Shown here: piece after piece, positions 2,896 to 55,008 of the stretch
Position numbering within the stretch: the first letter of the stretch is position 1
How the letters are laid out: each line of letters begins with the position of its first letter
DNA from: an uncultured Rhodospirillaceae bacterium
Lineage (GTDB): Bacteria > Pseudomonadota > Alphaproteobacteria > UBA9219
NCBI GenBank assembly: GCA_964652235.1
Contig: CAZZDK010000009.1
Span: forward strand, 6,261-70,260
DNA: 64,000 nt
Reading direction: 5' to 3'
Translations under genes and position numbers: made by a program
The notes under the pieces: generated by a model
What the model was told of the DNA's origin: nothing
Databases searched by the model: none
Seen by the model: only the letters and a program-made list of their open reading frames with translations

Positions 2896-5800
2896 ATGCT
2901 GTTTTCACAGGATAAAGACAAAGAGAACAAAGCCCCCAAACGTTCGCTTTGGGGCACGTTGTTCAATCCCCGCTTCGGCGACGACATCAAGCCGCTCGCC
3001 GAGACCTCTCGTATGTTCGCCAATCTCGTCGCGATGGTTTTGGCCACCAACAATCTGTTTCCCAAAGATCACCCGGCGCTGCGCGACGCGACGGTGCGCC
3101 TTTCTCTCAGCGAGGTAATCGCCATCGCCTGGAGCCGCCTGTCTTTCACGAAAGAAGGCCTGCCCCAAATCGTCCTCTTCGCCGCCGTTATCGGCTGCAT
3201 GGTCTTTTCGGCGCTGTTCATTATCACGCTTATCTTCTCGTTCTTCATCACCCCCGCCCACGCAGCGGAAAGTTCGAGTATGTTTACGCCCGCCGATGGT
3301 GGCGCTGGCGATTGGGCTCAAAACTGGCTTAATTATATTTTTTCTGGTGAGCCTTATTCCTTGAATCTGGAGGAGTATTCCAATGTGCCAAAATCATGCG
3401 TTTGGCAATCAGCCCTTGGGAAAGCCCTTGGCTTCTACAGCGGAGGGATACTTGTCCTGGCCGGAATTATTCTCCTTTATCACTTATTTTCCATGGTTGC
3501 TGAAACGGCCCATTCCGGAAAGGTTATGGGCAATGCAAACCAAATCTGGGCGCCTATACGGCTTGTCGTGGCGATCGGTCTTTTGGTCCCCATTGGAAGC
3601 GCCTCAGCTGGAACCAATTGTTCTATATCGGGCCTGAATACCGGCCAATATCTCGTTGTGCAAGTGGCTAAGTGGGGTTCTGGACTAGCAAGCAATGTGT
3701 GGAAAGTCTTCACGGAAGCCGTTGGCGAAACAACGCCCCCTAGCGATTGTCAGAAGGGGAGCGGCTCTCCTTCCTGCATACAAGTCCCGGCCTCTGTAAA
3801 GAAACCAGCTGTCGGGATTATAAGCAATTATTTTTGCGCAGCTATGTATAATCGTTATATGTCTGAGCTTGGCCTCAAAGATTATTTTATCGAAGCGGCT
3901 ACTGATGTTTCTGCTGGGGATCATTTTTTTGGTCCCAAGTCTACTTTGGGACCAAACGGTTTTAATTTTACCGCAAGAAAATTGTGCGGGGGCTATTCCC
4001 TCCCCGCTCTCCCGGCAGACAGCCTCTATAGGTCAGTTTATGAGACCCAAAGGGCCGCGCTTGGTTCTTATCTCACCAAAGCCAAAGAAAAAGTTAATAC
4101 CTATGTTACCTATTATGTACCCGGCGGTGTCGTTCCTCACGACATCAACGAAGAAATAAAGGAATTGACGGAATCCTTTCGAGAGGACGCTGATAATAGA
4201 GTCCAATCGATCCTTCCTGCCGCCGACAAGCAGGCAAAAGAAATGGATCCTATGTTATCCAACAAGCTGGTAAAAGATGGTGGCTGGCTTATGGCGGGCG
4301 CATGGTTTAACTCTATTGCGAAAAATCAAGCAGATCGCTCGGCCAGTGTACAAAATGCCATGCCCCTGGTTTTAGAAAAGAGTTTGACGACACTAGTGGA
4401 GGAAAAATTTTCTTTCTCCAGAGAAAAAAAGAAGGGAATCTCTTCTCCAGAAGAGCGCACTTTAGCCGCGGTCAGAAAATTTGAGGAAGATATAGGTTTC
4501 TTAGGAGACGCTCCTGTTAAAGCCTCAACGGAAAAAACTGCCGAACAGGGAAAAAAATCTGACGATTCTGCGTGGGATACTCTCAAGCAGATAATAAAAT
4601 CTGCTAACCCGGCTCAGGGGCTCGTTAATCTTCTGGTAAAAATGTTAACTGACTATAATATCAGCAACACAAAGGGATTGGCCCTCAGATTCAACTCTTT
4701 TGCCAATCCTTTGGCTGAGGTGGCAGCCTTTGGCCACAGTCTTGTTAATCTATCTCTTGATCTTTTCGGTTTGGCTTTGGCTGCCTATGCGGTGGGTCTT
4801 TTGCTTTCAGGCGCTGGCCTCGTCGGGGGGCTTCTGGCAACGATAGCTTTGCCCTTCTTTACGGCCGGGGCCTTTCTTGGTTTTTTGCTTCCTCTTGTCC
4901 CCTTCTTCCGTTTCTTTTTTGGTGCCCTTACTTGGATTATAGGTCTTTTTGAGGCTGTCGTTGCCGTCCCCCTTTGGGCCCTCGCTCATATGAACCCGGA
5001 AGGAGCCGGTCTTCCAGGGGGAATGGCTAAAAGTGGCTATTTCTTTATCCTTAATACTATGCTCCGCCCAGTTTTGATGATTTTCGGATTAATTGCAGGC
5101 TATCTCCTCTTTCTTGTTTCCCTGAGTTTTCTCAACACCGCGTTCTCTATGGCGGCGCAAACAACGGGGAGCTTAAATGGGTCGACGCGCAACCTAGCGA
5201 CCCTTGTTTTTACCTTCATGTATTGTGGTACGGTTTACACTCTTGGCAACCAATGCTTTAAATCCATAGGCATGTTCCCCGAACACGCTTTGCGGTGGCT
5301 CGGCACAAGCGGTCACCAAGAGAAAATGGGCGACCCGTCCATGTCCCAACAGACAATGGGCGCTGTTGGAAGTTATGTTTTGGGACAAGGGATTGGTCAA
5401 CTCGGGGGAGCTGCTAAACAACTAGGGGACAACTTAAGGGGGAAAAAGAAGGCCGCCGCCGACCAAAGAGCCAGCGCCCTCGCGGATCAACGCCGTGATG
5501 GGATCGCCCGACAACGCCATGACGATAATATGCGCGCGCAGGGCATGAGGATGGTCACCGACAATGAAGGCAACCCTGTCTTGGGCGATGGCGGTGCGCC
5601 TACATACGAACGCGACCCCAATGCCATCCAGCAGGCTTCGGGCGGGGAGCAGATTCAGTCGGGCGGTGACGGCGGCGGACAGTCCATCGCTTCCAGCAGC
5701 CCTCCCCCGCCGCCTATACCGAAGGGCTTCCAGAAATCGGAAAGCAGCGATCTCGTCATTCCCTCGACCCTCGCTACGGAACAGAAGACCGCGAAAAACG

Positions 5801-5925
5801 AGCAACCGGCCGTGAAGGAGGAAGCCGCCGCCGCAGAGGCGAAGAGAAAGAACGACGAGCAAAGCGCAGAGAAGTCGCTTGCCGATATGCGGGCCGAACA
5901 CGCGCGGAAAAGCTGGGAGACTTAA
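2896..5925 (+). CDS. Large polytopic membrane protein with Cys-containing periplasmic domain and Gly/Pro/charged C-terminal tail; candidate DotA/TraY-like (or VirB6/TrbL-like) T4SS inner-membrane component
   Basis: 1009 aa. N-terminal TM segments, a ~380-aa AT-richer central soluble domain with paired cysteines, a cluster of 5-6 TM helices (res ~600-800), then a GGDGGG / PPPPPIP / KE-rich tail. Its length is close to what I recall for Legionella DotA (~1048 aa), and T4BSS-like genes lie 15 kb away. Confidence 0.55.
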   Translation: MLFSQDKDKENKAPKRSLWGTLFNPRFGDDIKPLAETSRMFANLVAMVLATNNLFPKDHPALRDATVRLSLSEVIAIAWSRLSFTKEGLPQIVLFAAVIGCMVFSALFIITLIFSFFITPAHAAESSSMFTPADGGAGDWAQNWLNYIFSGEPYSLNLEEYSNVPKSCVWQSALGKALGFYSGGILVLAGIILLYHLFSMVAETAHSGKVMGNANQIWAPIRLVVAIGLLVPIGSASAGTNCSISGLNTGQYLVVQVAKWGSGLASNVWKVFTEAVGETTPPSDCQKGSGSPSCIQVPASVKKPAVGIISNYFCAAMYNRYMSELGLKDYFIEAATDVSAGDHFFGPKSTLGPNGFNFTARKLCGGYSLPALPADSLYRSVYETQRAALGSYLTKAKEKVNTYVTYYVPGGVVPHDINEEIKELTESFREDADNRVQSILPAADKQAKEMDPMLSNKLVKDGGWLMAGAWFNSIAKNQADRSASVQNAMPLVLEKSLTTLVEEKFSFSREKKKGISSPEERTLAAVRKFEEDIGFLGDAPVKASTEKTAEQGKKSDDSAWDTLKQIIKSANPAQGLVNLLVKMLTDYNISNTKGLALRFNSFANPLAEVAAFGHSLVNLSLDLFGLALAAYAVGLLLSGAGLVGGLLATIALPFFTAGAFLGFLLPLVPFFRFFFGALTWIIGLFEAVVAVPLWALAHMNPEGAGLPGGMAKSGYFFILNTMLRPVLMIFGLIAGYLLFLVSLSFLNTAFSMAAQTTGSLNGSTRNLATLVFTFMYCGTVYTLGNQCFKSIGMFPEHALRWLGTSGHQEKMGDPSMSQQTMGAVGSYVLGQGIGQLGGAAKQLGDNLRGKKKAAADQRASALADQRRDGIARQRHDDNMRAQGMRMVTDNEGNPVLGDGGAPTYERDPNAIQQASGGEQIQSGGDGGGQSIASSSPPPPPIPKGFQKSESSDLVIPSTLATEQKTAKNEQPAVKEEAAAAEAKRKNDEQSAEKSLADMRAEHARKSWET

Positions 5926-15080: not shown

Positions 15081-18863
<3,783 letters not shown>

Positions 18864-18864
<1 letters not shown>

Positions 18865-19013: not shown

Positions 19014-20048
19014 AATTTTTTTGTCCTCGATCAACTTTTCATAAAGCGCGATCATCTGCTCGGTTACGGCTTTGCGCGTATAGCCTTTCTGATAGGATTC
19101 GCGACCGCCTGCCACCAGCCGTTCGCGCAAAGCCTTGTCGCCGACGGCGCGGGAAAGCGCCTGCGCCAGCGACTTTTCATCGTCGACGGGGACAAGCAGC
19201 CCGTCTTTTTCGTGCGTCACGTGGCCCGCCGGGCCCGCGCTGGCGGCAGCGACAAGAGGAACGCCCGCCGCCCAAGCCTCCAAAATTACTGTCCCGAACG
19301 GCTCATAACGCGAAGGCAAAACGCACACATCCGCCGCGCGCAAAAGCGCGCCGCGATCCGTCCGCCAACCCAGAAACCGCACCCGCGATTCGAGACCGAG
19401 CGTTCGGGTCAGTTCTTCAAGTTCGCCGCGCAAAGGGCCTTCGCCCGCGAGCCAGACATAAAGGTCCGGCAAAAGTTTCGCGGCCTTCAATAGCGTGTCC
19501 AATCCCTTTTTGGGGTGAAGCCGCGAAAGAGCCAACGCGACAGGGGCGTCCGCAGGGGTGTCCAAGCTCGCCCTGTCCACAGGCGATTCGTCCCGCACAT
19601 CGGGAAAAGTCGGAACGTAAAACGCTTTTTCTTCCGCGACGCCGTTTTTGACCATATGCGCCACAATGTCGCGCGTCACGCCGACGAAGTGCGAACAATG
19701 TTTGAACTTGCGCGGATCGTAATAGCCGCCGAACCAACCGAGAACCGGCCCCTTTTTCCAGGCCGGGACAAGGCTGGCGGCGCGGCGCATCCAGCAATGG
19801 ATCAGGTCCGGGCTTTCCCGCTCGATCAGTTTTTTAAGCCGCCATCTTTGCAAAGGCCGGAAAGGAAAGGACAGAACTTCCGGCGCCGTCCGCACCCCCG
19901 ACGCAAGAAGCTCGCCATAGCGCGGCGCGGCGGCGGGATACACCGCGCATTGGTCGATCCCCGCCGCATGGAGGCTGAGCATCATGTCGGTGGCGTAGGT
20001 CTCCGCCCCGCCGAGGCCCTTGCCCGCCATGATGTGAAGAACGCGCAT
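18987..20048 (-). CDS. Glycosyltransferase family 4 (GT-B, WaaG/LpcC-like)
   Basis: EPFGTVILEAWAAGVPLVA (E-x7-E motif), N-terminal GKGLGGAE. Its start overlaps the stop of the upstream coupling-protein gene (TAATG). Confidence 0.8.
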   Translation of the reverse strand: MRVLHIMAGKGLGGAETYATDMMLSLHAAGIDQCAVYPAAAPRYGELLASGVRTAPEVLSFPFRPLQRWRLKKLIERESPDLIHCWMRRAASLVPAWKKGPVLGWFGGYYDPRKFKHCSHFVGVTRDIVAHMVKNGVAEEKAFYVPTFPDVRDESPVDRASLDTPADAPVALALSRLHPKKGLDTLLKAAKLLPDLYVWLAGEGPLRGELEELTRTLGLESRVRFLGWRTDRGALLRAADVCVLPSRYEPFGTVILEAWAAGVPLVAAASAGPAGHVTHEKDGLLVPVDDEKSLAQALSRAVGDKALRERLVAGGRESYQKGYTRKAVTEQMIALYEKLIEDKKIARRLRAYE

Positions 20049-22405
20049 TACTCCGCCGCTTTTTCTTTCCCGCCGAGGCCCTTATTCAGCTTGCCCGCCA
20101 TGTTTTCGACCAGGGCAGCCATGTCGGCGGGAAGCTGGAGCTTGGTCACATCCGGCCCTTCTTCTTCCTCGCGCACGGACGGCACGACGCGCGTATCGAG
20201 ATCGGACGGAACGAAGCCGCGCGGCGCGGACGTCTTGCGCTCGTAAAGCGGCGGCACGTCCAAATCTTCGAAACTGGCGCGCTTTTCTTCCGGTTCTTTG
20301 TCTTCTTCCCACGAAACGGCAAGCGGCTTGGCCACTTTGCCTGTCGCCGCCGTCTGGGACGGCGCTGCCGTTTCGGTTCGCTGGCGCGGTTTTTCTGCCG
20401 GAAGCTTCGCGGCGGCGGCGACCAGCGCCATGCCCTCTTCCATGGAAGAAAGGCCGCCGCCCCGAACAAGCGCCGCCATTTCCATCAGCGCCGAGACCTC
20501 GCCCGAAGGCGCCGCCTCGCCCGCCGCAGCCGCCGTCCAGTCGGGGTCCTTGAGCCGGGCCGCGACTTCGCTGATCGCCCGCTCGCGCGAAACGGTAAGC
20601 GTCGTCGTGGCGGGCACCGGCAAAAGCCGATGGACGCGCAGGGCCGAAACCTTGTCCGGCGCCGCATAGAACATCCGCACGCGCGCGATGAACTCGGCAA
20701 AGAGCATATGCACCTCGCCTTCGCGCTGACCGCGCAACTGGTCGTAGTGCGCGCGAACGCGAACCTGCGTGCCGCCCGTTCCCAGATTGTCGTAGAAAGG
20801 CTTGTTCATGAACAAGCTGGAAATCGTGTCGGTCTTGGCCGCCATGCCGTTCGATTCATAAACGAAGTTATCGCCGACGTGTTCCGAGAAGAATTTCTTC
20901 GTATCGCCCGGGTCCTCGAGCTTGCCGAAAATTTTCAGGTTGCAGTTGGCCAGGATGGATTGAGCCTCCTGCTTGACGCGCTTTTCCATCGACGGCAAGT
21001 CCTGCGCCGCGAAAATAAGAGAGAAGCCGAGCGAACGGGCCTGCGCGGCCATGACGGCCATGCCCTGCGCCGTGTAGTAACCGACTTCGTCAAACACCGT
21101 CATGAAGGAGGAGGAAGATCGCGTCTGTTTGCTGCCGATGGCGTTTTCCCAGCTTCCCTCCACCGTGTTGCCGAGCGTCGCGCCCATCATGCCTTTCAGG
21201 CTGGCGGCCACGATTTTGCCGAGGTTGGCGGCTTCGTCGCCGGATTTCTCCAGCGAGGGGATCAGGCCGACCAGAATACGCCGGTTCAAAACCGTGTCCA
21301 AAACGTCCACGTCCGCAAGCTGCGCCTTGAAGATGTAGCCGTATTCGTCGCCGAGCGATTGCAGCGAGCGCGTGAACTGCATGGACAGATAACCGTGCTG
21401 TTGCCGCGCGACTTGCAGATCGTACATGGGCTGATCGGGCGCGGGCGGACGCTCGTTGCCTTCGTCGTCGAAGGCCGCGTCGATATAGCCCGGCAGCGTG
21501 TTCAGGTAGCCTTGCAACGCCTTGATGACGCGTTCCGGCAGCGTCGCGTCGCGCGACAGGCGAATGATGGCAGGAAGCTCGATATATTCGCGCAAAACGC
21601 CGACGTCGAGCAAAAGGCCGCCCTTGTCGCGCTTCCAGGTCAAGGCGGGCATGAGGGCGCCGAGCAAAGCGACGGCGCGTTCTTTCCACATCGCGTTGTC
21701 GCCGCCCGCGTCAGGCATCAGGTTCGTCACCATGTTGGTGAGATAGGAAGCCGAGCCGTTCGAAAACGGGTTCATCGTGTTCGAGACCGCGCCGTTGTCC
21801 GAGTTCGCAGTCATGTAGTTCAAAACCAAAAGGTCATCGTCGCGCCCGAAGCGGCGCGCCAGCGCGAATAGAGACGCCCACAGATCCGTGTCGGCCTTGC
21901 CGTCCACATAGACGAAGCCCGACCCCCAGGTCAGGGCATTGGTCACAATGGCTTTCAGTCCTTCCGTTTTGCCGGACCCTGTGGTTCCGATAAAAAGAAT
22001 ATGCGTGCGGGCGTCGGTGTTGGTCAGCCAAATCTCGCGCCCCATGTCGGGGTGGCCCGCCTCGTCCAGATTGCCCAGATACAAAATGCCCTCGGACTTG
22101 CCCGGCCCCGTCCTGCCCGGCGCTGGGTTATGGGGGTCCGGCAACGGCGCCGCGTATTTCGGCATCTTGAACGGCAGCTCGATGGGCTGCTTGAAAAACC
22201 AACGAGCATAAAGAACGAGCAGAAACAAAACCAGATCGGAAAGAAGCCCGGCTTCCGGCAGGGCGAAAACCAAGACTCCGACGCCGAGCGTGGCGGCGCA
22301 GAAAGGTTCCGTCTGGCTCCAGAAATCCTTGATGCGCACGGAGGCCGGCCGCGCGTCGCGCAGCAAGTCGCGAAGATTCAGCGCGTGTTTCTTAAGAATG
22401 GTCAT
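20048..22405 (-). CDS. dotL: Type IV secretion coupling ATPase, DotL/IcmO (TrbC of IncI)-like
   Basis: 785 aa. Two N-terminal TM helices, Walker A FIGTTGSGKTEGLK, long acidic/Ala-rich C-terminal extension. The size is about what I recall for DotL (~783 aa). It is adjacent to DotM-like and DotO-like genes. Strong SD AAGGAGGG. Confidence 0.6.
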   Translation of the reverse strand: MTILKKHALNLRDLLRDARPASVRIKDFWSQTEPFCAATLGVGVLVFALPEAGLLSDLVLFLLVLYARWFFKQPIELPFKMPKYAAPLPDPHNPAPGRTGPGKSEGILYLGNLDEAGHPDMGREIWLTNTDARTHILFIGTTGSGKTEGLKAIVTNALTWGSGFVYVDGKADTDLWASLFALARRFGRDDDLLVLNYMTANSDNGAVSNTMNPFSNGSASYLTNMVTNLMPDAGGDNAMWKERAVALLGALMPALTWKRDKGGLLLDVGVLREYIELPAIIRLSRDATLPERVIKALQGYLNTLPGYIDAAFDDEGNERPPAPDQPMYDLQVARQQHGYLSMQFTRSLQSLGDEYGYIFKAQLADVDVLDTVLNRRILVGLIPSLEKSGDEAANLGKIVAASLKGMMGATLGNTVEGSWENAIGSKQTRSSSSFMTVFDEVGYYTAQGMAVMAAQARSLGFSLIFAAQDLPSMEKRVKQEAQSILANCNLKIFGKLEDPGDTKKFFSEHVGDNFVYESNGMAAKTDTISSLFMNKPFYDNLGTGGTQVRVRAHYDQLRGQREGEVHMLFAEFIARVRMFYAAPDKVSALRVHRLLPVPATTTLTVSRERAISEVAARLKDPDWTAAAAGEAAPSGEVSALMEMAALVRGGGLSSMEEGMALVAAAAKLPAEKPRQRTETAAPSQTAATGKVAKPLAVSWEEDKEPEEKRASFEDLDVPPLYERKTSAPRGFVPSDLDTRVVPSVREEEEGPDVTKLQLPADMAALVENMAGKLNKGLGGKEKAAE

Positions 22406-22454
22406 GGCCTTCGCCCTCCTTTTCCCGCGGCTTTTGCAAAGCGGGATTTTTTCT

Positions 22455-23012
22455 TCATTCCGCTGGCGGCTCCAGCACGTCGTCGGCGGACATCGGCACG
22501 CCGTTTCGAATTTCCTTCGGCGCCAAGGGCGTCGGAACGACGGGCGCAGACGACAAACTTCCCGCTTTCGTAGGAATCGTCGAGGCGCTCTTTTGCGCCT
22601 GCGCGCGCAAAAGCGCCAATTGCTCTTCCGTAATCGGCGCGGAAAAGAACGTCATAACGAAAAACCCGATAAAAAGGACGCCCAAAAACATCAGGAGGCG
22701 CCGCCACCAATTGTTCTTAAAAGGCGACGCGTCCCGCAAAAGGGTTTTTTGAGTCGCCGCATAGGCCTCCTCGGCCTGGCGCCTTTCGTCGAAATGGGCG
22801 ATGGGCGTAAAGACGCCTTGCGGCAGCAAAAGGCCCAACTCCCACTCGCCGTCCTTTTCGCGCAACGTCACGGCGTGGCTGCCCATCTTTTCGAGATCAA
22901 ACTGCCAGACGACAGGGGGGGTGCTCTCCTTGTAAGACGCCACAAGACAGGGCGTCTGATTCCGCCGCACCAACTTGGCCTGAACGCCCGCTTTTCCCGA
23001 AAAACAAAACAT
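22455..23012 (-). CDS. Hypothetical single-TM membrane protein encoded between the DotM-like and DotL-like genes
   Basis: 185 aa. SD AGGGAG 8 nt upstream. One central TM (WWRRLLMFLGVLFIGFFVMTFF). No recognisable motif. Confidence 0.5.
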   Translation of the reverse strand: MFCFSGKAGVQAKLVRRNQTPCLVASYKESTPPVVWQFDLEKMGSHAVTLREKDGEWELGLLLPQGVFTPIAHFDERRQAEEAYAATQKTLLRDASPFKNNWWRRLLMFLGVLFIGFFVMTFFSAPITEEQLALLRAQAQKSASTIPTKAGSLSSAPVVPTPLAPKEIRNGVPMSADDVLEPPAE

Positions 23013-23028
23013 AGCCTATCTCCCTTTC

Positions 23029-24261
23029 CTATGACGCACGCACGTCCTTGCCCGCTCCCGCGAACGGCGGAAGCTCCGGCTGATTGGCCGCAAAATACTG
23101 GTTAAGCGCCACGATCGCCGTCTCAAGCCTTGGAATGGGCAAGGCCTTTCCCGCCGCTTCTTCGGCCATATAATGCGCCATCGCGCCCGCGCCTTCCATG
23201 TGAAAGGAGCGACGCCCCAGATTGTTCAGCGCGTACCACAAAGTCCGATCCGTGCCGCGCAGCCACAAAAACTGAGCGGACGCCAGCACGCCGCCCATAA
23301 ATCTGGCCCAACGCAAAACGCCAAGAAGGGCGGTCGTCCGGTAAGCGTGCTTGGCCGCTATCTCAAGCGCCTTGCCGCCGATTTCCGGGTCTTTGAGAAT
23401 TTTCTGAATCTCGGCCATGATCTCCGCCGTTGGGCGAAAACCCCCTGTTGCCGTCCAGCAGGTGGAAAGCTTGCCCAAAAACTCGTCGCTTTCTTCGCGT
23501 TTTTGCACGCCTTTAAGCGCAAACGCCGCCAGAAGGCCAAGCACATAGGGGGGCAGTCCTTTATAACCGGCCCAGCGCGGACCCAGTTGCGCGAGAAAAG
23601 CCTGTCGCGTGCGGTCCTTGTTGGGAACGCCCCCCTCGACGCCGATTTGATGGGCGGAAACCCACTCTTCGGGCGAAAGAGCTTCGGCGAACAAAGGCAG
23701 CTTTTCCGGGATCAACGAACCGGGTATCCGCGCGCTGTGCTTGGACGGGTTGAAATCCACGATCGGCTGAATCACGGGCCATATCTTCGCCTGGACCTTG
23801 ATAAAGCTTTCCAGATTGTAGCGCGTTTTGAAAGCGTCCTTCTTGAAAACGAAAAGAGCCTTATAAATGACATAGACGGCCACACCCAGAACGATCCACC
23901 GCCAATAATCCATAATATGCCTACTCACGGCGCCGACGCTGGTAGCCGTCAGCGTGTAATATTGCATGGCTTCCGCCGCGGGAAGAGGTCTCAACGTGTT
24001 AACGCCAAAGCAGTTTGCAGCGGCCAGAACCGTGCTATCCGCCGGAACGGTTTTCTCAAGCGGCACGATCCAAAGCCAATGAAAACAAGCCCGCGCTTTT
24101 TGGTCGAAGGGCATAAGCGGCACGATTTCGGCAAGCCGAAGGTACCGCATAAACTCAAGCAGTTGCGGCTCGAAGAAAAACCAAATCAGCCATCCGATCA
24201 AAAGGATAGCGCAGATAAAGATCAGCAGAATCCATGTCGGATCGTCGGTGTTGCCTGCCAT
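23029..24261 (-). CDS. dotM: Inner-membrane T4SS coupling-complex protein, DotM/IcmP (TrbA of IncI)-like
   Basis: 410 aa. N-terminal TM helices followed by ~250-aa alpha-helical cytoplasmic domain, the size and topology I recall for DotM. Position immediately upstream of the DotL-like gene. Confidence 0.5.
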   Translation of the reverse strand: MAGNTDDPTWILLIFICAILLIGWLIWFFFEPQLLEFMRYLRLAEIVPLMPFDQKARACFHWLWIVPLEKTVPADSTVLAAANCFGVNTLRPLPAAEAMQYYTLTATSVGAVSRHIMDYWRWIVLGVAVYVIYKALFVFKKDAFKTRYNLESFIKVQAKIWPVIQPIVDFNPSKHSARIPGSLIPEKLPLFAEALSPEEWVSAHQIGVEGGVPNKDRTRQAFLAQLGPRWAGYKGLPPYVLGLLAAFALKGVQKREESDEFLGKLSTCWTATGGFRPTAEIMAEIQKILKDPEIGGKALEIAAKHAYRTTALLGVLRWARFMGGVLASAQFLWLRGTDRTLWYALNNLGRRSFHMEGAGAMAHYMAEEAAGKALPIPRLETAIVALNQYFAANQPELPPFAGAGKDVRAS

Positions 24262-24390
24262 TTTCGCCCGTTCCTGCTATAGCCCCTAGAGCCCGCTTGG
24301 TTTCGATTCCAAAACGGTCGGGCATTATACGCCTAACAAAGCAGATTTGCCTTACCTTTTTACTTGCCGCAATCTCTTTCTTCGCCGCCG

Positions 24391-27381
24391 TTAACTTTTT
24401 TCCTCGACATCCCGCTGCAAGGACCGGGCATAGGCGATCATTTCTTTGGCCAGCTCGGAAATGACGACGCTGGTCGCGCCGGATTCGATCTCGCCGCGCT
24501 CGGTTCTTTGGACCACCCGGCGACGAATTTCCTGCCGCGCCGAACCGGCCGGGAAGAAATGGGCCAGAATGGACCGCCCTCTGGCAGCGCCAAGTTCTTC
24601 ATAAAGCTTGGTTCTGAGGTCCACATCTTCGGTGGAGGTCGATAAAGCCCAAAGCTCCACGGGGCCGAGCGTGTTAACCAAATGCTGCTCATATCGGCCT
24701 TCATTGGTGCTGAGAAGCAGCAAAACGGGCGCGCCGCTGGGCCGGGGGCCTGTCAAACGGTACCGCATGACCCACCGGGCGGTGTCGGACAGGCCGAAAC
24801 GATCCGCCGTTTCGCTGATGGCCCGGTCGGAAACCGCCGTGCCGCAAATCCACACGCCCGTCGCCAGGTCGATCATGTCGGCGCTGAAATCGTCCAAAAG
24901 CTGCGAGGCCAGAACGATCTGCACGCCCCATTTGCGGCCTTCGCGCACGTCGCGCACGACCTGCGCCCGAACGGCGTTCGTCTTGCTCGTGCGGTGAAAC
25001 TCGTCAAAGCACAAACGCTTCGGGCTTTCCCGAATGTCCTTAAGCCGCCCCTCGTGATAGGGCCTGTATTTTTCGGGCATATGGCGCAGGGAATCCTGCC
25101 CCAGCCACCAGGAGCGGACCAAAACGTGCCGCGCAAGCATATACATGATGGCCGTCTGGCGGTCCGCGATGTCGTCGCCCTGGGGCGCGACGTCCTGCAA
25201 ATCGACGGCGGCGATGTGCGTCTCGCCGATATCGAAGCGCGTCACCGAGGCGAGGATGGGGAACTCGCGCACGGCGGAAGCCAACATACGCTCAAAGGCA
25301 TGAATGACGGACTCGGCCGAAGCGCCGATGGCCGTTTCTTCGAGAAGAGCCCGTATCTGGGGCCTGCGTGCCGCCGTCACCGCGTCCACGAGCGTGGGCA
25401 CCGCGTGGCGCTGGGCCAGCGTGCATTCATGATAGGCGCCCGCATCGTACAGCGCGTCCACGACGTCCCACCAATAAGGATCGACGGGCAGGTGGATGTT
25501 GTAGGTCTTGATCGCCTCATCCACGTCCGGCTCGATGTTCTGCAGATAGGGCCGCGGCTCGGTGTTCGCGCCGCTGTCGTCGCGCCAACGGTACATCTCG
25601 TCCACGCAAAGGCCGACGAGCTGCGTCATGCCGTCATAGGGAACCTTCTGCCCCGGCGAGGTGCAAAGAAGGGTCAAAAGCTCCGTGAGATAGGAGCGCT
25701 CTTCAGGCAAGGGGTAGCGGCAGCCGAGCTGCGTATCGAACGGATTGACGGCATATTCAGGGGTCATGCGCAATTTGAAATGCATGGCCTCGTGGCGACG
25801 GTTAAGAGGCAATGCATCGCGGATCAGAGAGATCAATCCGGACGAAGACGGCCCAATGTCGAGAATGGCGATATAGGGCAGGCGCGCGTTGCCCGCCGAA
25901 AGAACGGTGCCGAGATTGAGGGCGTTCATCAAGACGGATTTGCCCGCGCCCGGCTGCGCGAAAATAAGATCAAACCACGTCGTCGTAAGCGAACTGCCCA
26001 TCTGATAGGGCCAGATGCGCCCGTCGGCGGTGCGGAAAATAACGGGGCCTTCCGCGAAAGGCGAAGAGGCCCTTTGCCAGGGCATAAGCTTCATGACCTC
26101 CTGAAACGGCGCGATGGCAGGCGGCGCGGTTGACGAGCAAGCGATGCCGAGCGAAGCGGACAAAGCGGTCTCGAGAGGATCGCCTCCTGCCGAAGTCGCC
26201 TGGCAATAGCCCCAGGCCTCGACCGCCTGCGTCAGGGCGGCCAAACGCGTTTCCATCAGCCTGCGATCCCGCGCCGGGGCGTAGGTCGAAAGCGAAATGC
26301 GCAGGCGCACGACCGGTTCGCTTTGCGCCAGTTCCTGCAGCGCTTTGAGCGATTCCCGTATCTGGCGATTCACTTCGTTCGTGAAAGCCAAAATCGCCGC
26401 CGTAAAGGCACGGAACATCGCACCCTGCGCGCCCGCGCTTTCGATCAGGAACGAAACGTGGAAAGGAATGTCGCCGTCGATGAGCCGCGCGAGAAGCTGC
26501 GGAAAGGGCGTCGGATCGGCGGGCGCCAGCGTCACGTCCACGCCGCCCCAAAGCAAATCGCCGATCCGCACGATGGTCGGCGAAACCGTTTCCGCATCCG
26601 CCACGCAAAGCTGCCTGCGCAGCGGCGGCCAGAGAACTTCCGAAAGATCCGTTTTCCGGTGCGGCGCGCGCGGCAAAAGGGGATCGCCGGGAACGTTCGC
26701 GCGCCAATCTTTGTTGGCAAGATAGGGGTAGAGGCTGGCCCGCACCGCGGCAAGCGCGCTGTGCACCGATTCCAAAGAAGCCCGGATCGCGACTTCTTCC
26801 AACGCCGCCGTCACCGCCGCGACGAAGCTCTTGTGCCGCGTGCGTAGAGGCTCCAGCGTCAGTTTGGGATTCTGGGCGTCGCTCGCGACGACCCACTTCT
26901 GTTCGCCGCGCAAACGGATCGCTTCCTTCAGGTCGCTTTTGTTCACGGCGCCGGGGCGCGTCCAGAGAACGAAGTAAACCTCTTCGTGCGCCAGATAGCG
27001 GGTCAGGTGTCGCTTTCGTTCTTCAAGCAAATCGCCCAGATCGAGGTCGAGAGCCCGCGCGGCGCTTCGGTTCGATTGCATGGCCCTCGCAAGGTCTTCG
27101 CCCGCCATGGCGGGGTCGCGCATGAAATAAACCTGCATGGCGTAGCCGGGACGGTCGAACCGCGCGCCGAGCTTCATCGTCGCCTGGTCCACGATCCAGC
27201 GATATTCCGCGTCACCGATGATTTGCCGTGCGCCGTGAATGCGAATAAAGGACACCATCGAACCGTCCGCGGCCACAAGCGTCGTATCGTCTTCGGCGGT
27301 CTCCAGCTGAATAAAGGATTCGATGGGCTGCTTGGCGGCCAGAAGAATGGCGGCCAGAACGTTGTCCAGAAGGTTCAGCAT
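24391..27381 (-). CDS. dotO: VirB4-family T4SS ATPase, DotO/IcmB (TraU of IncI)-like; the 27381 start (MLNLLDN) is preferred to the ORF-track start at 27522
   Basis: ~1000 aa, Walker A FAQPGAGKSVLMNAL mid-protein. The size matches what I recall for DotO (~1009 aa) rather than the shorter VirB4/TrbE (~800-850 aa). Adjacent to DotM/DotL-like genes. Confidence 0.55.
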   Translation of the reverse strand: MLNLLDNVLAAILLAAKQPIESFIQLETAEDDTTLVAADGSMVSFIRIHGARQIIGDAEYRWIVDQATMKLGARFDRPGYAMQVYFMRDPAMAGEDLARAMQSNRSAARALDLDLGDLLEERKRHLTRYLAHEEVYFVLWTRPGAVNKSDLKEAIRLRGEQKWVVASDAQNPKLTLEPLRTRHKSFVAAVTAALEEVAIRASLESVHSALAAVRASLYPYLANKDWRANVPGDPLLPRAPHRKTDLSEVLWPPLRRQLCVADAETVSPTIVRIGDLLWGGVDVTLAPADPTPFPQLLARLIDGDIPFHVSFLIESAGAQGAMFRAFTAAILAFTNEVNRQIRESLKALQELAQSEPVVRLRISLSTYAPARDRRLMETRLAALTQAVEAWGYCQATSAGGDPLETALSASLGIACSSTAPPAIAPFQEVMKLMPWQRASSPFAEGPVIFRTADGRIWPYQMGSSLTTTWFDLIFAQPGAGKSVLMNALNLGTVLSAGNARLPYIAILDIGPSSSGLISLIRDALPLNRRHEAMHFKLRMTPEYAVNPFDTQLGCRYPLPEERSYLTELLTLLCTSPGQKVPYDGMTQLVGLCVDEMYRWRDDSGANTEPRPYLQNIEPDVDEAIKTYNIHLPVDPYWWDVVDALYDAGAYHECTLAQRHAVPTLVDAVTAARRPQIRALLEETAIGASAESVIHAFERMLASAVREFPILASVTRFDIGETHIAAVDLQDVAPQGDDIADRQTAIMYMLARHVLVRSWWLGQDSLRHMPEKYRPYHEGRLKDIRESPKRLCFDEFHRTSKTNAVRAQVVRDVREGRKWGVQIVLASQLLDDFSADMIDLATGVWICGTAVSDRAISETADRFGLSDTARWVMRYRLTGPRPSGAPVLLLLSTNEGRYEQHLVNTLGPVELWALSTSTEDVDLRTKLYEELGAARGRSILAHFFPAGSARQEIRRRVVQRTERGEIESGATSVVISELAKEMIAYARSLQRDVEEKS

Positions 27382-27596
27382 GGACGAAAGACCTCCCGGC
27401 GCGAAGGGGGAGACGCAGGGACGGAGGAGAGACCGATTGGAGCCAAACGCCGAAACGCCATGCGGGACACATACCTTGCAAACGGACAACGACAAACGTC
27501 TGCCCAAGGAAGCCTCGGACATCCTTGCTGTTTTAACGGCAAGATTATGAACAATTAACTAACGCAAAAGATTTAGAAAAGCCCTTTCGTTTTCCC

Positions 27597-31576: not shown

Positions 31577-32155
31577 TTATTTCGTCGCCCAAGTCCTTAT
31601 ATTTCCTAAATCAACGTGAACATGGTTACTGCTGGGATAAAAGGAAACGCCCCCGCGTTGCATGGTCTTGGCAATTTCGGCGATGGCCTTGCCGTTCACG
31701 CCCGCGATGCGAAAATCAACGGCCCAGCCATGCAGATGAAAACTGTTTTTCGCCGCCTGTCCGCCGTTTGCGCGAAGCGAAGCGTTCGATTCCGGCGAGC
31801 GGTAGCCGGAGAGAATCTCGAAAACCACGCCGGAAGGCAGGCCAAGCCGCCGCCTTATATCCACCATATAATCAATCAGTTCCGGATCAATTTTCCCGAC
31901 CTCTCCCGTGCGACGATCCCGAAAAAGCTTTTCGATTTTTTTCATGGCCGCCGGATCGTAGCGCCCGTTCGCGTAATAGGTCAGGTCCAGCCGTTCGCCG
32001 CTGGGCGGATGAGAAAGAACGATCCGCCGTTCTGGCACGTCGTCGGGACGCGTTTTTTCGCCGCCATATTGCTTGACAAGCTTTCCCGCCATACCGGACG
32101 AACCGCACCCGGCCAGGAAAAAGGCCGCGCACAGGAAAAGAAGAGCTCGTTTCAT
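31577..32155 (-). CDS. DUF882/YcbK-family lipoprotein (peptidase M15A-like)
   Basis: Lipobox LAGC. Zn-ligand motifs FHLHGWAVDF and HVHVD. Confidence 0.75.
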   Translation of the reverse strand: MKRALLFLCAAFFLAGCGSSGMAGKLVKQYGGEKTRPDDVPERRIVLSHPPSGERLDLTYYANGRYDPAAMKKIEKLFRDRRTGEVGKIDPELIDYMVDIRRRLGLPSGVVFEILSGYRSPESNASLRANGGQAAKNSFHLHGWAVDFRIAGVNGKAIAEIAKTMQRGGVSFYPSSNHVHVDLGNIRTWATK

Positions 32156-50439: not shown

Positions 50440-51348
50440 TTATCCCTGCAGCTTCCTGAGCAGCGCGTCGAGTTGATCGAGGTCCGAGTAAAAGACCGTG
50501 AGCGAGCCGGAGGATCCCATTGAGGTGATTTTGACGCGCAGGCCGACGGCGCGCTCCAGTGCGCGCTCCAGCGCCAAAATGTCGGGGTCCGTATTTTGCG
50601 AGGCGCGCGGCTTTTTGGCGAACCGCCCGTCGGACAATTTTTTCGCGAGCGCCTCCGCCTGTCGGACGCTCAGGCCCTTTCGCACGATCTCGCGGGCCAG
50701 CGCTTCGGGGTCCTTCGCCGTCACGATGCAGCGCGCGTGGCCCATCGTAAGCTCGCCTGCGTTGATCATGTTTTTCACGGGTTCGGGCAGCGTCAAAAGA
50801 CGCAAAAGGTTCGTGATATGCGGACGGCTTTTGCCCACGACCTTCGCGAGGCCGTCTTGCGTATGGTGAAACTCTTCCAAAAGCCGCTTATAGCCTTCCG
50901 CCTCTTCGAGCGGCGAAAGATCCTGTCGCTGCACGTTTTCGATAAGGCCGATTTCCATCGCCTCGCGGTCGGAAAAATGGCGCAAAAGAACGGGGACTTC
51001 GTGCAGCCCCGCGATTTGCGCGGCGCGCCAGCGCCGCTCGCCCGCAAGAATTTCGTAGCTGTTTTCTTCGCCCGCGATGGGCCTCACCATGATCGGCAAA
51101 ATAACGCCGCGCTCTTTGATAGAGCGGGCGAGGTCCTGAATGCCTTCTTCGTCGAAACGGCGGCGCGGCTGGTAGGCGCCGGGCTGAATCCATTCGATCG
51201 GAAGCGTCTTCGTCTCTTCCTCGCTTCGCGCGGATCGCGCTTCGGCCCGGACGGGGACCGCGCGTCCGTAGGAAGAATCGGCGTCGCCGAAAAGGGCCGA
51301 AAGACCGCGCCCTAAAGGCGCCGGTTTGCCTGGTGTTTTCACGTTCAT
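50440..51348 (-). CDS. parB: Chromosome partitioning protein ParB
   Basis: ParB box GLIENVQRQDLSPLEEAEGYKRL; HTH. Confidence 0.9.
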   Translation of the reverse strand: MNVKTPGKPAPLGRGLSALFGDADSSYGRAVPVRAEARSARSEEETKTLPIEWIQPGAYQPRRRFDEEGIQDLARSIKERGVILPIMVRPIAGEENSYEILAGERRWRAAQIAGLHEVPVLLRHFSDREAMEIGLIENVQRQDLSPLEEAEGYKRLLEEFHHTQDGLAKVVGKSRPHITNLLRLLTLPEPVKNMINAGELTMGHARCIVTAKDPEALAREIVRKGLSVRQAEALAKKLSDGRFAKKPRASQNTDPDILALERALERAVGLRVKITSMGSSGSLTVFYSDLDQLDALLRKLQG

Positions 51349-52214
51349 GCGTCCGTCCCCGTTTGTTTCATGCTTATTTTGATCCCTTCGCTTCGCAATT
51401 CCTCACGGCGCAAAACCTCGCTCGCCAAATGCAGATAGGCGTTGCTGCCCGAACATTTCAGGTCGTAAAGCAAAACCGGTTTCCCGTGGGACGGCGCCTC
51501 GGAAACACGCACATTGCGCGGAATGGACGTCTCATAAACTAAGTCGCCGAAAAAGGCGCGAACGTCTTGAGCGACAGCGTCCGACAAGCTATTGCGTTTA
51601 TCGAACATGGTAAGCACAACACCTTGTATTTCTAGCGAGGGATTGAATCGTGCCCGAACCGCGTCGATCGTCTGCAAAAGGCTGCTCATGCCCTCCAGCG
51701 CATAGAACTCGACCTGCAAGGGCACGAGCAATCCGTCCGCCGCCACCAGTGCGTTGAGCGTAATGAGGTTGAGCGAGGGCGGACAGTCGATCAAAATAAA
51801 ATCGTAATCCTTGGCGCTGCGCTCCAACGCGTCGCGCATACGGGATTCGCGGCGCTCGGTATTGACAAGCTGAATTTCCGCGCCCGCAAGGTCCGCCGAC
51901 GAGGTGATGATCGAAAGATTGGGAATGGGCGTCGCGCGAACCACGTCTTCGACGGACAGGCCGTCGAACATCAATTCATAAGCCCCCGCGCCGCGCTCGG
52001 CGCGGGAAATGCCGAACCCCGTCGAAGCGTTGCCCTGCGGGTCGGCGTCCACGATCAAAACGCGCTTGCCGACCGCCGCCATGGCGGTGGCGAGATTCAC
52101 GGCGGTGGTGGTTTTGCCCACGCCGCCTTTCTGGTTCACGATGGCGATGACGCGGCACCCGCAGGCGTAGCCGCCGGAGGGGGGAGGATTATTTATGTTT
52201 TCGTTTGGCGTCAT
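51345..52214 (-). CDS. parA: Chromosome partitioning ATPase ParA
   Basis: Deviant Walker A IAIVNQKGGVGKTTTAVNLA. Confidence 0.9.
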   Translation of the reverse strand: MTPNENINNPPPSGGYACGCRVIAIVNQKGGVGKTTTAVNLATAMAAVGKRVLIVDADPQGNASTGFGISRAERGAGAYELMFDGLSVEDVVRATPIPNLSIITSSADLAGAEIQLVNTERRESRMRDALERSAKDYDFILIDCPPSLNLITLNALVAADGLLVPLQVEFYALEGMSSLLQTIDAVRARFNPSLEIQGVVLTMFDKRNSLSDAVAQDVRAFFGDLVYETSIPRNVRVSEAPSHGKPVLLYDLKCSGSNAYLHLASEVLRREELRSEGIKISMKQTGTDA

Positions 52215-52306
52215 GCCGAACCTTTATGCGCGGGGAATTGGAGAATCCCCAATGCTGCTTGACTTCACTCGCTCCGCGCCTCGCGTTTCGTTTGCCGGAC
52301 TTCGCC

Positions 52307-53008
52307 TTAGTCTTTTAAGCCTTTATTCCGTCCGGCGAACGAACCGCTCCTCGCGACCGCTCGTGACCTAAACGAATTTCCTTTTCGCACCCTCTGTCTT
52401 AGATCACGAATAAGCAAAACCGCCCCGGACGGGTCGGTCCGGCTCTCTCTTTTTTCCGCGCTGAATGTCCAATATTTACGCGCCTCTGTCAATTCCGCAT
52501 CGGCCTTTTGGCCCTTCAAAAACAAACAAACCCCGTCCGACTTCAAAAAAGGCTTGGCCAAGGATAAAAGCTCGGCCAAAGGGGCCACAGCCCGCGCCGT
52601 CACGACATCGGCCCTTAAATTCCTGATTTTTTCCGCCCTCTCTTGATGAACCGTGACGTTCGGGGCCAGTTCGGCGGCCACTTTTTCCAAAAACCTGGCC
52701 TTTTTGCCGATACTTTCTATGAGGTGAACCTCTAAACCCCCCATGATGGCCAAAACCAGACCCGGAAAACCTGCCCCGCTGCCCAGATCGACCAGACAGG
52801 TTGTTTCCCGTGGTAAAAGGGCGAAAAGTTGGGCCGAATCCCAAAAATGCCTTTTCCAAAGATCCGGAATCGTGCTGGCGGCCACGAGGTTGATTTTTTC
52901 GTTCTCTTCAACCAAAAGCGTCGCGTAACGTTCTAATTTTATTCGCGTTTCACGAGGAACTTGATTTTCCTCGAAAAATTTTTCTTTGTTTTGAGTGGGT
53001 TGCGCCAT
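52307..53008 (-). CDS. rsmG: 16S rRNA (guanine527-N7)-methyltransferase RsmG
   Basis: SAM motif VDLGSGAGFPGLVLAI. Confidence 0.85.
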   Translation of the reverse strand: MAQPTQNKEKFFEENQVPRETRIKLERYATLLVEENEKINLVAASTIPDLWKRHFWDSAQLFALLPRETTCLVDLGSGAGFPGLVLAIMGGLEVHLIESIGKKARFLEKVAAELAPNVTVHQERAEKIRNLRADVVTARAVAPLAELLSLAKPFLKSDGVCLFLKGQKADAELTEARKYWTFSAEKRESRTDPSGAVLLIRDLRQRVRKGNSFRSRAVARSGSFAGRNKGLKD

Positions 53009-53009
53009 G

Positions 53010-54863: not shown

Positions 54864-55008
54864 CTTTTCCTGCTTTTCCGGAGCCGAAAGGGTATAGAGC
54901 GGAAAAGGGGGTGAAAGCAAATGGGGAGTGAGGGGCTGGACTTCGCGGAGAGGCTTGGTCCTTTTTGAAAAAGAGCGGTTATCCGGTTTGGCGCGAAAGG
55001 GGCGTTTC

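What the first reader, a model, noticed from the sequence alone, without database searches (positions are those of the whole stretch)
22455..23012. Uncharacterised single-TM protein inserted between the DotM-like and DotL-like genes
In the canonical icm order as I recall it, icmP (dotM) is followed directly by icmO (dotL). Here a 185-aa ORF with its own strong SD (AGGGAG) and a central TM helix sits between them. Known coupling-complex partners (DotN, IcmS, IcmW, LvgA) are soluble and have no TM, so this may be a lineage-specific subunit of the coupling complex.
Basis: inference. Interest (0 to 1): 0.55.

Follow-up and report, generated by a model that had tools for sequence, protein, structure and literature searches.

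The report
TrbB-slot membrane protein of T4BSS
The small ORF between the DotM-like and DotL-like genes is a real, conserved, unnamed single-pass inner-membrane protein of a chromosomal alphaproteobacterial type IVB secretion system, and it fills the slot that trbB fills in IncI-type conjugative plasmids, so it is an uncharacterised variant of a known arrangement, not a one-off insertion.

Summary
Window 22455-23012 (-) encodes a 185-aa protein with an AGGGAG Shine-Dalgarno 7 nt upstream. It lies 16 nt after a DotM gene and 49 nt before a DotL gene.

The gene is real. Its codon-position GC matches its neighbours, dN/dS is about 0.1-0.3, and a profile search finds 671 clusters. In every related locus with enough flank it follows DotM. 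DotL follows in all but one.

Its architecture is constant:
- a cytoplasmic PH-like domain (about residues 1-95, pLDDT above 90);
- one TM helix at about residue 102, oriented N-in/C-out;
- an Ala/Pro/Ser-rich periplasmic linker of 14-100 residues;
- a C-terminal GVPxSADDVLxPP peptide.

It matches no Pfam, NCBIfam or PDB entry.

In 13 of 14 MPF_I plasmid loci surveyed an ORF occupies the DotM-DotL slot, including IncI1 TrbB. The family HMM ranks these slot ORFs top among 731 plasmid ORFs.

I read it as a TrbB-slot accessory subunit without the thioredoxin domain. It probably sits with the DotL-DotM-DotN coupling complex and docks a periplasmic partner through its tail. Physical association is inferred, not shown.

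The parts
22455..23012 (-). Gene X: 185-aa bitopic inner-membrane protein, the TrbB-slot protein of this T4BSS
   Evidence: ORF. Homologues and family size. Conserved position. Codon-position GC. dN/dS.
23020..23025 (-). Shine-Dalgarno AGGGAG, 7 nt upstream of the ATG, inside the 16-nt DotM-X spacer
   Evidence: Read directly from the sequence.
22728..23012 (-). Residues 1-95: cytoplasmic N-terminal domain of six beta-strands and one helix, PH-like fold
   Evidence: AF2 pLDDT is 91-98 over residues 11-90. Foldseek hits are all to PH, FERM-F3 or Rtt106 domains (prob up to 0.93, E 0.04-0.3). This is the most conserved part of the family.
22638..22706 (-). Residues 103-125: single transmembrane helix, N-in/C-out
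   Evidence: Hydropathy and AF2 helix 99-123. 159 of 168 family members have one TM, starting at about residue 102. Mean K+R count is 2.9 on the N-flank and 1.0 on the C-flank; the N-flank is richer in 126 members and poorer in 8.
22503..22637 (-). Residues 126-170: variable periplasmic linker rich in Ala, Pro, Ser and Gly
   Evidence: Low pLDDT. Composition. Length is 14-100 residues across the family, median 35.
22473..22502 (-). Residues 171-180: conserved C-terminal peptide GVPMSADDVL (followed by EPPAE), the presumed periplasmic docking motif
   Evidence: Nearly invariant G171, P173, A176, D177, L180. The motif occurs only in X ORFs across the window and all loci. It starts about 14 residues from the C-terminus in 123 of 168 members.
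23029..24261 (-). DotM/IcmP homologue (410 aa), immediately upstream
   Evidence: PF23127 at 1e-47. NF033890 at 5e-50. 6sz9_B at 1.2e-26.
20048..22405 (-). DotL/IcmO type IV coupling protein homologue (785 aa), immediately downstream
   Evidence: 6sz9_A at 1.9e-128. TraG-D_C and TrwB_AAD_bind domains. TrbC model at 2.5e-105.
24391..27522 (-). DotO/IcmB (IncI TraU)-like ATPase (1043 aa), first gene of the four-gene block
   Evidence: tblastn matches IncI1 traU at about 28% identity over 90% of the query, E 1e-82. Weak VirB4/TraC hits. 66-89% identical in related loci.
2896..5925 (+). DotA/TraY family protein (1009 aa). A further T4BSS gene in the window, separated from the block by housekeeping genes.
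   Evidence: TIGR04346 at 4.9e-79 and 266.6 bits, against a cut-off of 100.

Best explanation
Gene X encodes an accessory inner-membrane subunit of a chromosomal Dot/Icm-type (T4BSS, MPF_I) secretion system. It is co-transcribed in a dotO-dotM-X-dotL block.

The protein is bitopic, N-in/C-out. A roughly 95-residue PH-like domain sits in the cytoplasm directly under the membrane. One TM helix follows, then a flexible Ala/Pro-rich tether in the periplasm, which ends in a short conserved acidic peptide, GVPxSADDVLxPP.

It is the positional and architectural counterpart, and probably a remote homologue, of the ORFs found between trbA/dotM and trbC/dotL in MPF_I conjugative plasmids. That group includes IncI/L/M TrbB. 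X has a short docking peptide where TrbB has a thioredoxin domain.

The most likely mechanism has two parts. The TM helix and cytoplasmic domain associate with the membrane-embedded part of the DotL-DotM(-DotN) coupling complex. The tail binds a periplasmic T4BSS partner, linking the coupling complex to the periplasmic machinery.

Shown here: the gene is real, the architecture, the topology prediction, the conserved synteny, and the relation to plasmid slot proteins. Inferred: physical association with DotM/DotL and the existence of a periplasmic partner.
For: Synteny:
- Homologues at 22-49% identity lie directly after a DotM gene in every locus that has upstream flank.
- They lie directly before DotL in all loci with downstream flank except L034.
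- The chromosomal flanks differ between loci: ComM plus a GT4 glycosyltransferase, PheRS, or ArgRS. The linkage is therefore to the T4BSS genes and not to the neighbourhood.
- L001 shows the block continuing a DotH-DotG-(DotF-like)-TraQ/DotE-like-128 aa-DotN-DotO array.

Operon coupling:
- The DotM-to-X gap is -4 to 76 nt and the X-to-DotL gap is 21-141 nt.
- No intergenic terminator-like site lies inside the block, and such sites are not more frequent than in shuffles.

Architecture and topology.

Relation to plasmid slot proteins:
- The family HMM was searched against all 731 six-frame ORFs of at least 80 aa from 14 MPF_I plasmid loci. The top four hits are exactly the DotM-DotL intervening ORFs: Acidovorax 1.8e-6, Xanthomonas 1e-4, Methylibium 6e-4, Methylocapsa 0.03. 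IncI1 TrbB ranks 6th.
- The aligned segment is the last strand and helix of the N-domain plus the TM, in register.

Functional precedent:
- Deleting trbB abolishes pCTX-M3 conjugation.
- trbB is needed for efficient R64 transfer (PMC6112013).
- TrbB is listed among the components critical for pOXA-48 transfer, with an unresolved role (PMC12365149).
Against: - No direct evidence of protein-protein contact.
- X evolves much faster (26-49% identity) than DotO, DotL or DotM (37-89%) in the same loci. This fits a peripheral component as well as an integral one.
- In L034, DotM-X is followed by pilin-like genes and not DotL. The linkage is therefore tighter to DotM than to DotL.
- Similarity to IncI1 TrbB itself is not significant (E 0.22; hhalign probability 0.3%).
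- The PH-like fold assignment rests on weak Foldseek scores (best E 0.04).
- Legionella-type systems work without any such protein.
Confidence: 0.6

Rival explanations
1. X is a T4BSS component that does not belong to the coupling complex. It could be an assembly factor or tether working with DotO, the DotI/DotJ-type inner-membrane scaffold, the core complex or peptidoglycan. On this view it sits next to dotM only through operon history.
For: - The block begins with DotO, so the operon is not purely 'coupling complex'.
- The tail is periplasmic, whereas the known coupling-complex partners are cytoplasmic.
- X evolves fast.
- In plasmids the same block carries a lytic transglycosylase upstream and DUF882/DsbG genes downstream.
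Against: - X stays with DotM even where DotL is absent (L034).
- X is often within 11-16 nt of the DotM stop codon or overlaps it.
- The slot between the two coupling-complex genes is conserved across very distant MPF_I systems.
Confidence: 0.25
2. X is a membrane-anchored substrate receptor or adaptor. Its cytoplasmic PH-like domain would bind effectors or a relaxosome and hand them to DotL/DotM.
For: - The N-domain is the best-conserved part of the protein, is cytoplasmic and lies next to the membrane.
- PH-like folds are common peptide- and ligand-binding modules.
- Precedent, from my own knowledge and not tested here: the cytoplasmic part of DotF/IcmG has been reported to bind effectors.
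Against: - This does not explain the conserved periplasmic peptide and tether.
- No candidate substrates were identified.
- The fold match is weak.
Confidence: 0.1
3. X is a true TrbB-type periplasmic thiol-disulfide oxidoreductase or isomerase.
For: It has the same gene slot and the same N-domain-plus-TM layout as IncI1 TrbB, which is annotated 'DsbC family'.
Against: - No thioredoxin or DsbC hit in Pfam or NCBIfam, even at E<=1.
- The periplasmic part is only about 60 residues.
- 1 of 159 family members has any Cys there, and none has CxxC.
Confidence: 0.02
4. The ORF is a chance open frame, or an unrelated membrane protein, entry-exclusion factor or immunity factor with no role in the secretion machine.
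For: It has no annotation anywhere. Small inner-membrane exclusion proteins do occur in tra operons (own knowledge).
Against: - Coding signal and purifying selection are present.
- The family has 671 clusters with constant architecture.
- Its position is invariant inside scattered chromosomal T4BSS genes, in loci where no relaxase or other conjugative gene was noted.
Confidence: 0.03

Closest known systems
TrbB of IncI1/IncL/IncM conjugative plasmids (R64, pCTX-M3, pOXA-48), the MPF_I 'TrbB' component
   Same: - The gene lies between trbA (DotM) and trbC (DotL).
- The N-terminal domain is about 95-100 residues and ends in a helix. A single TM follows at about residue 100-125, then a low-complexity periplasmic linker.
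- It is needed for conjugation, and its role is unresolved (PMC6112013, PMC12365149).
   Different: - TrbB carries a C-terminal DsbC/TraF-like thioredoxin domain with CxxC (PMC4027160).
- X has only a short peptide motif and no periplasmic Cys.
- Sequence similarity is not significant.
Unnamed 'hypothetical proteins' between icmP/dotM and the T4CP gene in MPF_I plasmids: Acidovorax pACP3.1 (202 aa), Methylibium RPME01 (185 aa), Xanthomonas pXCV183-type (259 aa) and Pseudomonas pND6-2 (263 aa)
   Same: - Same slot, similar size, and the same layout of N-domain, one TM and a Pro/Ala-rich tail.
- Homology to the X family is detectable for the Acidovorax, Xanthomonas and Methylibium ORFs, over the last strand and helix plus the TM (E 1.8e-6 to 6e-4 among 731 ORFs).
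- The pND6-2 ORF scored only E 0.81 (rank 11). Its link is the shared slot, its architecture, and a C-terminal peptide like that of the Xanthomonas ORF.
   Different: - The C-terminal peptides differ: P[AE]L[NS]CAT[NQ] or GPGCDPxLAFxVxE, against GVPxSADDVL in X.
- They are plasmid-borne and conjugative, whereas X is chromosomal.
- tblastn with X finds nothing in 72,556 plasmids.
Legionella Dot/Icm coupling-complex accessory subunits (DotN, IcmS, IcmW, LvgA, DotY, DotZ)
   Same: X would likewise be a lineage-restricted partner of DotL-DotM. DotY and DotZ are a precedent for such additions (own knowledge; PDB 6sz9/7ovb matched by the neighbouring genes).
   Different: - All of these are soluble cytoplasmic proteins. 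X is membrane-anchored with a periplasmic tail.
- No sequence match. No Dot/Icm chain appears among the 50 best Foldseek PDB hits.
- A separate DotN homologue exists in the related locus L001.
DotF/IcmG (IncI TraP)
   Same: It is also a bitopic inner-membrane T4BSS protein with a cytoplasmic N-terminus and a periplasmic C-terminus (own knowledge).
   Different: - X does not match NF038218.
- L001 has a separate, weakly DotF-like 430-aa gene in the expected position after DotG.
- X has no folded periplasmic domain.

Membership tests
IncI/L/M TrbB (MPF_I TrbB) | Encoded between the DotM homologue (trbA) and the DotL homologue (trbC) | tested here: met
   Window gene order. The IncI1 locus has trbA, then a DsbC-family protein, then trbC.
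IncI/L/M TrbB (MPF_I TrbB) | Single TM helix after an N-terminal domain of about 100 residues | tested here: met
   X has its TM at about 103-125. IncI1 TrbB has its TM at 101-119. pCTX-M3 TrbB has one TMH (PMC6112013).
IncI/L/M TrbB (MPF_I TrbB) | Periplasmic thioredoxin-like (DsbC/TraF-like) domain with CxxC | tested here: not met
   No thioredoxin or DsbC hit at E<=1. None of 159 family members has CxxC, and 1 of 159 has any periplasmic Cys.
IncI/L/M TrbB (MPF_I TrbB) | Significant sequence similarity to TrbB | tested here: inconclusive
   hhalign gives probability 0.3% but aligns in register. The X HMM ranks IncI1 TrbB 6th of 731 ORFs at E 0.22.
Wider 'DotM-DotL slot' bitopic proteins of MPF_I plasmids (unnamed) | Slot position, plus N-domain, one TM and a low-complexity tail, plus detectable homology | tested here: met
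   13 of 14 plasmid loci have a slot ORF. 10 have one TM by hydropathy, and Methylibium has one by eye. The top four HMM hits are slot ORFs, with E from 1.8e-6 to 0.03.
Legionella T4CC accessory subunits (DotN, IcmS, IcmW, LvgA, DotY, DotZ) | Sequence or fold similarity to one of these proteins | tested here: not met
   NCBIfam gives 0 hits at E<=1. The PDB profile search returns only designed proteins, at E about 5. The 50 best Foldseek PDB hits include no Dot/Icm chain.
Legionella T4CC accessory subunits (DotN, IcmS, IcmW, LvgA, DotY, DotZ) | Physical association with DotL/DotM | not testable with these tools
No experimental data are available.
PH-like fold superfamily (N-terminal domain only) | Beta-sandwich of 6-7 strands capped by a C-terminal helix | tested here: inconclusive
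DotF/IcmG | Match to the IcmG_DotF model, and position after DotG | tested here: not met
   No NF038218 hit for X. A different gene holds that position and gives a weak hit in L001.

The most novel reading that the evidence does not exclude
The DotM-DotL slot protein is an ancestral, stoichiometric membrane subunit of all MPF_I/T4BSS coupling complexes that Legionellales have lost. Its N-domain and TM helix would pack against the unresolved transmembrane region of DotL-DotM. Its lineage-specific periplasmic C-terminal module would couple the coupling complex mechanically or functionally to the periplasmic channel. That module is a short docking peptide here and a thioredoxin domain in TrbB. 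If so, this family gives a minimal, domain-free version in which to dissect that link.
Probability: 0.3. Interest if true: 0.6.

Novelty: new variant of a known kind. Interest (0 to 1): 0.4.

Why it matters
The membrane-embedded part of the T4BSS coupling complex was not resolved in the Legionella cryo-EM structure (PMC12365149). How it connects to the periplasmic machine I take, from my own knowledge, to be still open.

A conserved bitopic protein is encoded between dotM and dotL in hundreds of environmental alphaproteobacterial lineages. It is related to slot ORFs of conjugative MPF_I plasmids, a group that includes clinically important IncI/L/M types. That makes it a concrete candidate for the missing link.

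It also recasts the poorly understood TrbB as one member of a broader modular family with a common N-domain and TM and a variable periplasmic module.

In practice, the family has no Pfam or NCBIfam model. It could serve as a marker for this chromosomal T4BSS lineage.

Tried and rejected
- Pfam, NCBIfam and PDB sequence searches of X and of 35 family members found no meaningful hit.
- tblastn of X against 72,556 plasmids found nothing.
- The genome-contig scan returned a single locus, an alphaproteobacterial MAG, so taxonomy stays coarse. The first attempt with alignment A1 failed for lack of a conserved stretch.
- An exact look-up of the window's own protein found no contig on record. The cluster look-up gave no names.
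- A homologue search with the Methylibium slot protein, meant to build a bridging profile, found only the query itself.
- The best DotO hit, on the Methylorubrum extorquens AM1 megaplasmid, has no DotM-X-DotL nearby.
- Considered and rejected:
  - X as a split-off piece of DotM or DotL. Both align end to end with the Legionella proteins.
  - X as a thioredoxin-type TrbB.
  - The antisense ORF 22290-23105 (+) as the real gene. Its GC3 of 0.596 is lower than its GC1, which is atypical here.

Full report
**1. The observation**

The ORF at 22455-23012 (-) is 185 aa and starts with ATG. The 16-nt spacer upstream reads GAAAGGGAGATAGGCT, so AGGGAG lies 7 nt before the start codon.

The gene upstream, 23029-24261 (-), is a DotM homologue. 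It matches PF23127 DotM_C at 1e-47, NF033890 at 5e-50, and Legionella DotM chain 6sz9_B at 1.2e-26.

The gene downstream, 20048-22405 (-), is a DotL homologue. It matches Legionella IcmO/DotL chain 6sz9_A at 1.9e-128, aligned over residues 5-622 against 7-616.

The 1043-aa gene further upstream, 24391-27522 (-), resembles IncI1 TraU, the DotO/IcmB counterpart. It is about 28% identical over 90% of its length at E about 1e-82.

Both DotM and DotL align with the Legionella proteins from near their N-termini. The ORF is therefore not a split fragment of either.

A central TM helix is present. The hydropathy peak is at residues 106-124 and the AF2 helix spans 99-123.

**2. Is it a real gene?**

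Codon-position GC is 0.575/0.457/0.72. This matches the neighbours, which show GC3 0.67-0.78 and GC2 0.44-0.47. The overlapping antisense ORF does not show this pattern.

A first search found 19 homologues at 31-49% identity, none with a Pfam domain or a name. A profile search of 1.84 billion cluster representatives found 671 clusters at E<=1e-3, 214 at E<=1e-10 and 72 at E<=1e-30. Of the 150 best listed, nearly all are 140-230 aa.

Among the closest pairs available, dN/dS is 0.11-0.28, although dS is near saturation.

**3. Anatomy**

The family alignments show four parts:
- a conserved N-terminal region of about 95 residues, with nearly invariant F27, W36, D39, F74, A80 and A83;
- a hydrophobic helix;
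- a variable low-complexity segment;
- a conserved C-terminal peptide GVP[LMV][ST/P]ADDVLxPP.

Numbers from the 168 sequences collected:
- 159 have exactly one predicted TM helix, starting at a median of residue 102.
- The mean K+R count is 2.9 on the N-flank and 1.0 on the C-flank. The N-flank is richer in 126 members and poorer in 8. This predicts an N-in/C-out topology.
- The linker is rich in Ala, Pro, Ser and Gly. It is 14-100 residues long, median 35.
- The motif starts about 14 residues from the C-terminus.
- Only 1 of 159 members has any Cys in the periplasmic part, and none has CxxC.
- The motif occurs nowhere else in six-frame translations of the window or the fetched loci.
- A few members carry two copies of the motif.

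AF2 on the 19-sequence alignment gave a mean pLDDT of 80.6. Residues 11-90 score 91-98 and fold into six beta-strands followed by a helix.

The best Foldseek PDB matches are all PH-like modules: FERM F3, the USP37 PH domain, the Sin1 PH domain, Rtt106, OCRL and TFIIH p62. Scores are weak, with E 0.04-0.3 and probability up to 0.93. No Dot/Icm chain appears among the 50 best hits. I call the fold PH-like with moderate confidence.

**4. Context elsewhere**

Every homologue whose contig could be read sits directly after a DotM_C gene. This includes members only 22-32% identical to X.

A metagenome scan added 16 loci. tblastn with the four window proteins shows DotM upstream in every locus that has flank. 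DotL lies downstream in every such locus except L034. In L034, DotM and X overlap by ATGA and are followed by type IV prepilin-like genes.

The chromosomal flanks differ:
- ComM and a GT4 glycosyltransferase in the window, L003 and L006;
- a methyltransferase and PheRS in L007 and L008;
- ArgRS in L010.

The constant unit is therefore dotO-dotM-X-dotL.

In L001 the block continues a Legionella-like array: DotH, DotG, a weakly DotF-like gene, a TraQ/DotE-like gene, a 128-aa gene, DotN/IcmJ (4.9e-24), and DotO. The lineage thus has a DotN and hence a DotL-DotM-DotN module.

Intergenic gaps are -4 to 76 nt between DotM and X, and 21-141 nt between X and DotL. No intergenic terminator-like site lies inside the window's block, and such sites are no more frequent than in shuffles.

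Identities to the window proteins are 66-89% for DotO, 35-77% for DotL (the lowest values come from loci that hold only partial DotL genes), 37-76% for DotM and 26-49% for X. X is the fastest-evolving member.

The only named genome is an alphaproteobacterial MAG.

The window also carries a DotA/TraY gene at 2896-5925. It is separated from the block by tsaD, gpsA, gatB and gyrB. The T4BSS genes are thus scattered among housekeeping genes on the chromosome.

**5. Comparison with known systems**

That holds for Legionella-type loci (my own knowledge) but not for the wider T4BSS/MPF_I class.

In IncI1 plasmids the order is trbA, then a 372-aa 'DsbC family protein' (TrbB), then trbC. TrbB has an N-terminal region of about 95 residues, a TM at 101-119, a linker and a CxxC thioredoxin domain.

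pCTX-M3 TrbB has one TM helix and a thioredoxin-like domain, and its deletion abolishes conjugation. R64 trbB is needed for efficient transfer (PMC6112013). TrbB is listed among the components critical for pOXA-48 transfer, and its role is unresolved (PMC12365149). The thioredoxin part is related to F-type TraF (PMC4027160).

I surveyed 14 MPF_I plasmid loci found with the window's DotM. Thirteen have an annotated ORF in the slot, and most of these have an N-domain, one TM and a Pro/Ala-rich tail.

Each plasmid group ends in its own conserved C-terminal peptide:
- [AP]FGL[DEN] in Acetobacteraceae and Beijerinckiaceae plasmids;
- GPGCDPxLAFxVxE in Xanthomonas and Pseudomonas plasmids;
- P[AE]L[NS]CAT[NQ] in Methylibium and Acidovorax plasmids.

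I searched the X-family HMM against all 731 six-frame ORFs of at least 80 aa from these loci. The top four hits are exactly the slot ORFs:
- Acidovorax, E 1.8e-6;
- Xanthomonas, E 1e-4;
- Methylibium, E 6e-4;
- Methylocapsa, E 0.03.

IncI1 TrbB ranks sixth. The aligned segment is the last strand and helix of the N-domain plus the TM helix, for example TPMAHFKTQDAAEAAHALLSKAY against TPIAHFDERRQAEEAYAATQKTLL.

X is therefore a remote homologue of at least some plasmid slot proteins. It is the positional and architectural equivalent of TrbB, but it fails TrbB's defining thioredoxin test.

**6. Mechanism**

Shown:
- X is a bitopic protein predicted to be N-in/C-out.
- It is co-encoded with DotM and DotL.
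- It has a folded cytoplasmic domain, a flexible periplasmic tether and a conserved terminal peptide.

Inferred:
- It sits with the membrane part of the DotL-DotM(-DotN) complex.
- It uses its tail to dock a periplasmic partner.

The modular pattern across MPF_I supports a role that links the cytoplasmic-membrane coupling module to something in the periplasm. That pattern is a common N-domain and TM with a lineage-specific C-terminal peptide or a thioredoxin domain.

I could not test contacts.

The main rival is that X serves another part of the machine, such as DotO, the scaffold or the core complex, and not the coupling complex. A substrate-adaptor role for the PH-like domain is also possible. 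A redox role, a chance ORF and an exclusion factor are effectively excluded.

**7. Verdict**

This is an unannotated, widespread family that represents a thioredoxin-less variant of the TrbB-slot component of T4BSS. It is of moderate interest.

Noticed in passing
window 2896-5925 (+): A 1009-aa DotA/TraY family protein (TIGR04346, 4.9e-79) with lower GC (0.51-0.55) than its surroundings. It lies about 14 kb from the dotO-dotM-X-dotL block (2896-5925 against 20048-27522), with tsaD, gpsA, gatB and gyrB in between. The T4BSS genes are therefore scattered among housekeeping genes on the chromosome.
   Followed up: partly
L034 1-4000: DotM and X overlap by ATGA. They are followed by type IV prepilin-like ORFs with a GFTLIELAIVLAV N-terminus, not by DotL. 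This is the only locus where DotL is not immediately downstream.
   Followed up: partly
L033 1023-3296: The contig carries two inverted copies of the X C-terminal region and of DotL fragments. This is probably a palindromic assembly artefact.
   Followed up: no
L016, L019, L037, L038, L039; L013, L015; L011, L036; L017, L040 (ORFs between DotM and DotL): Each group of plasmid slot proteins ends in its own conserved C-terminal peptide after a Pro/Ala-rich linker: [AP]FGL[DEN], GPGCDPxLAFxVxE, P[AE]L[NS]CAT[NQ], or DLKTFHL[QE]P. This suggests lineage-specific periplasmic docking motifs.
   Followed up: partly
L011, L013, L015 (downstream of DotL); window 31577-32155 (-): In three MPF_I plasmids DotL is followed by a DUF882 (peptidase M15-like) gene. 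In two of them dsbG comes next, and a lytic transglycosylase precedes DotM. The window has a MepK-like L,D-endopeptidase about 9 kb away, and L003 has a Peptidase_M15 gene nearby.
   Followed up: no
window 57297-59342 (+): A 681-aa polytopic membrane protein with no Pfam or NCBIfam match. It lies in a region of strongly negative AT skew (-0.22 to -0.33 over 56-60 kb).
   Followed up: no
L014 3917-5554: The Thalassospira plasmid DotM homologue is 545 aa, with a large internal insertion. It has no separate slot ORF before its 1276-aa coupling protein.
   Followed up: no
window 50440-56944 (-): mnmG (53010-55010) and mnmE (55610-56944) were identified. Together with gyrB at 15937-18864 they suggest the window may lie near the chromosomal replication origin. 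The ORFs at 50440-52214 next to them were not scanned, so I cannot say whether they are parAB.
   Followed up: no
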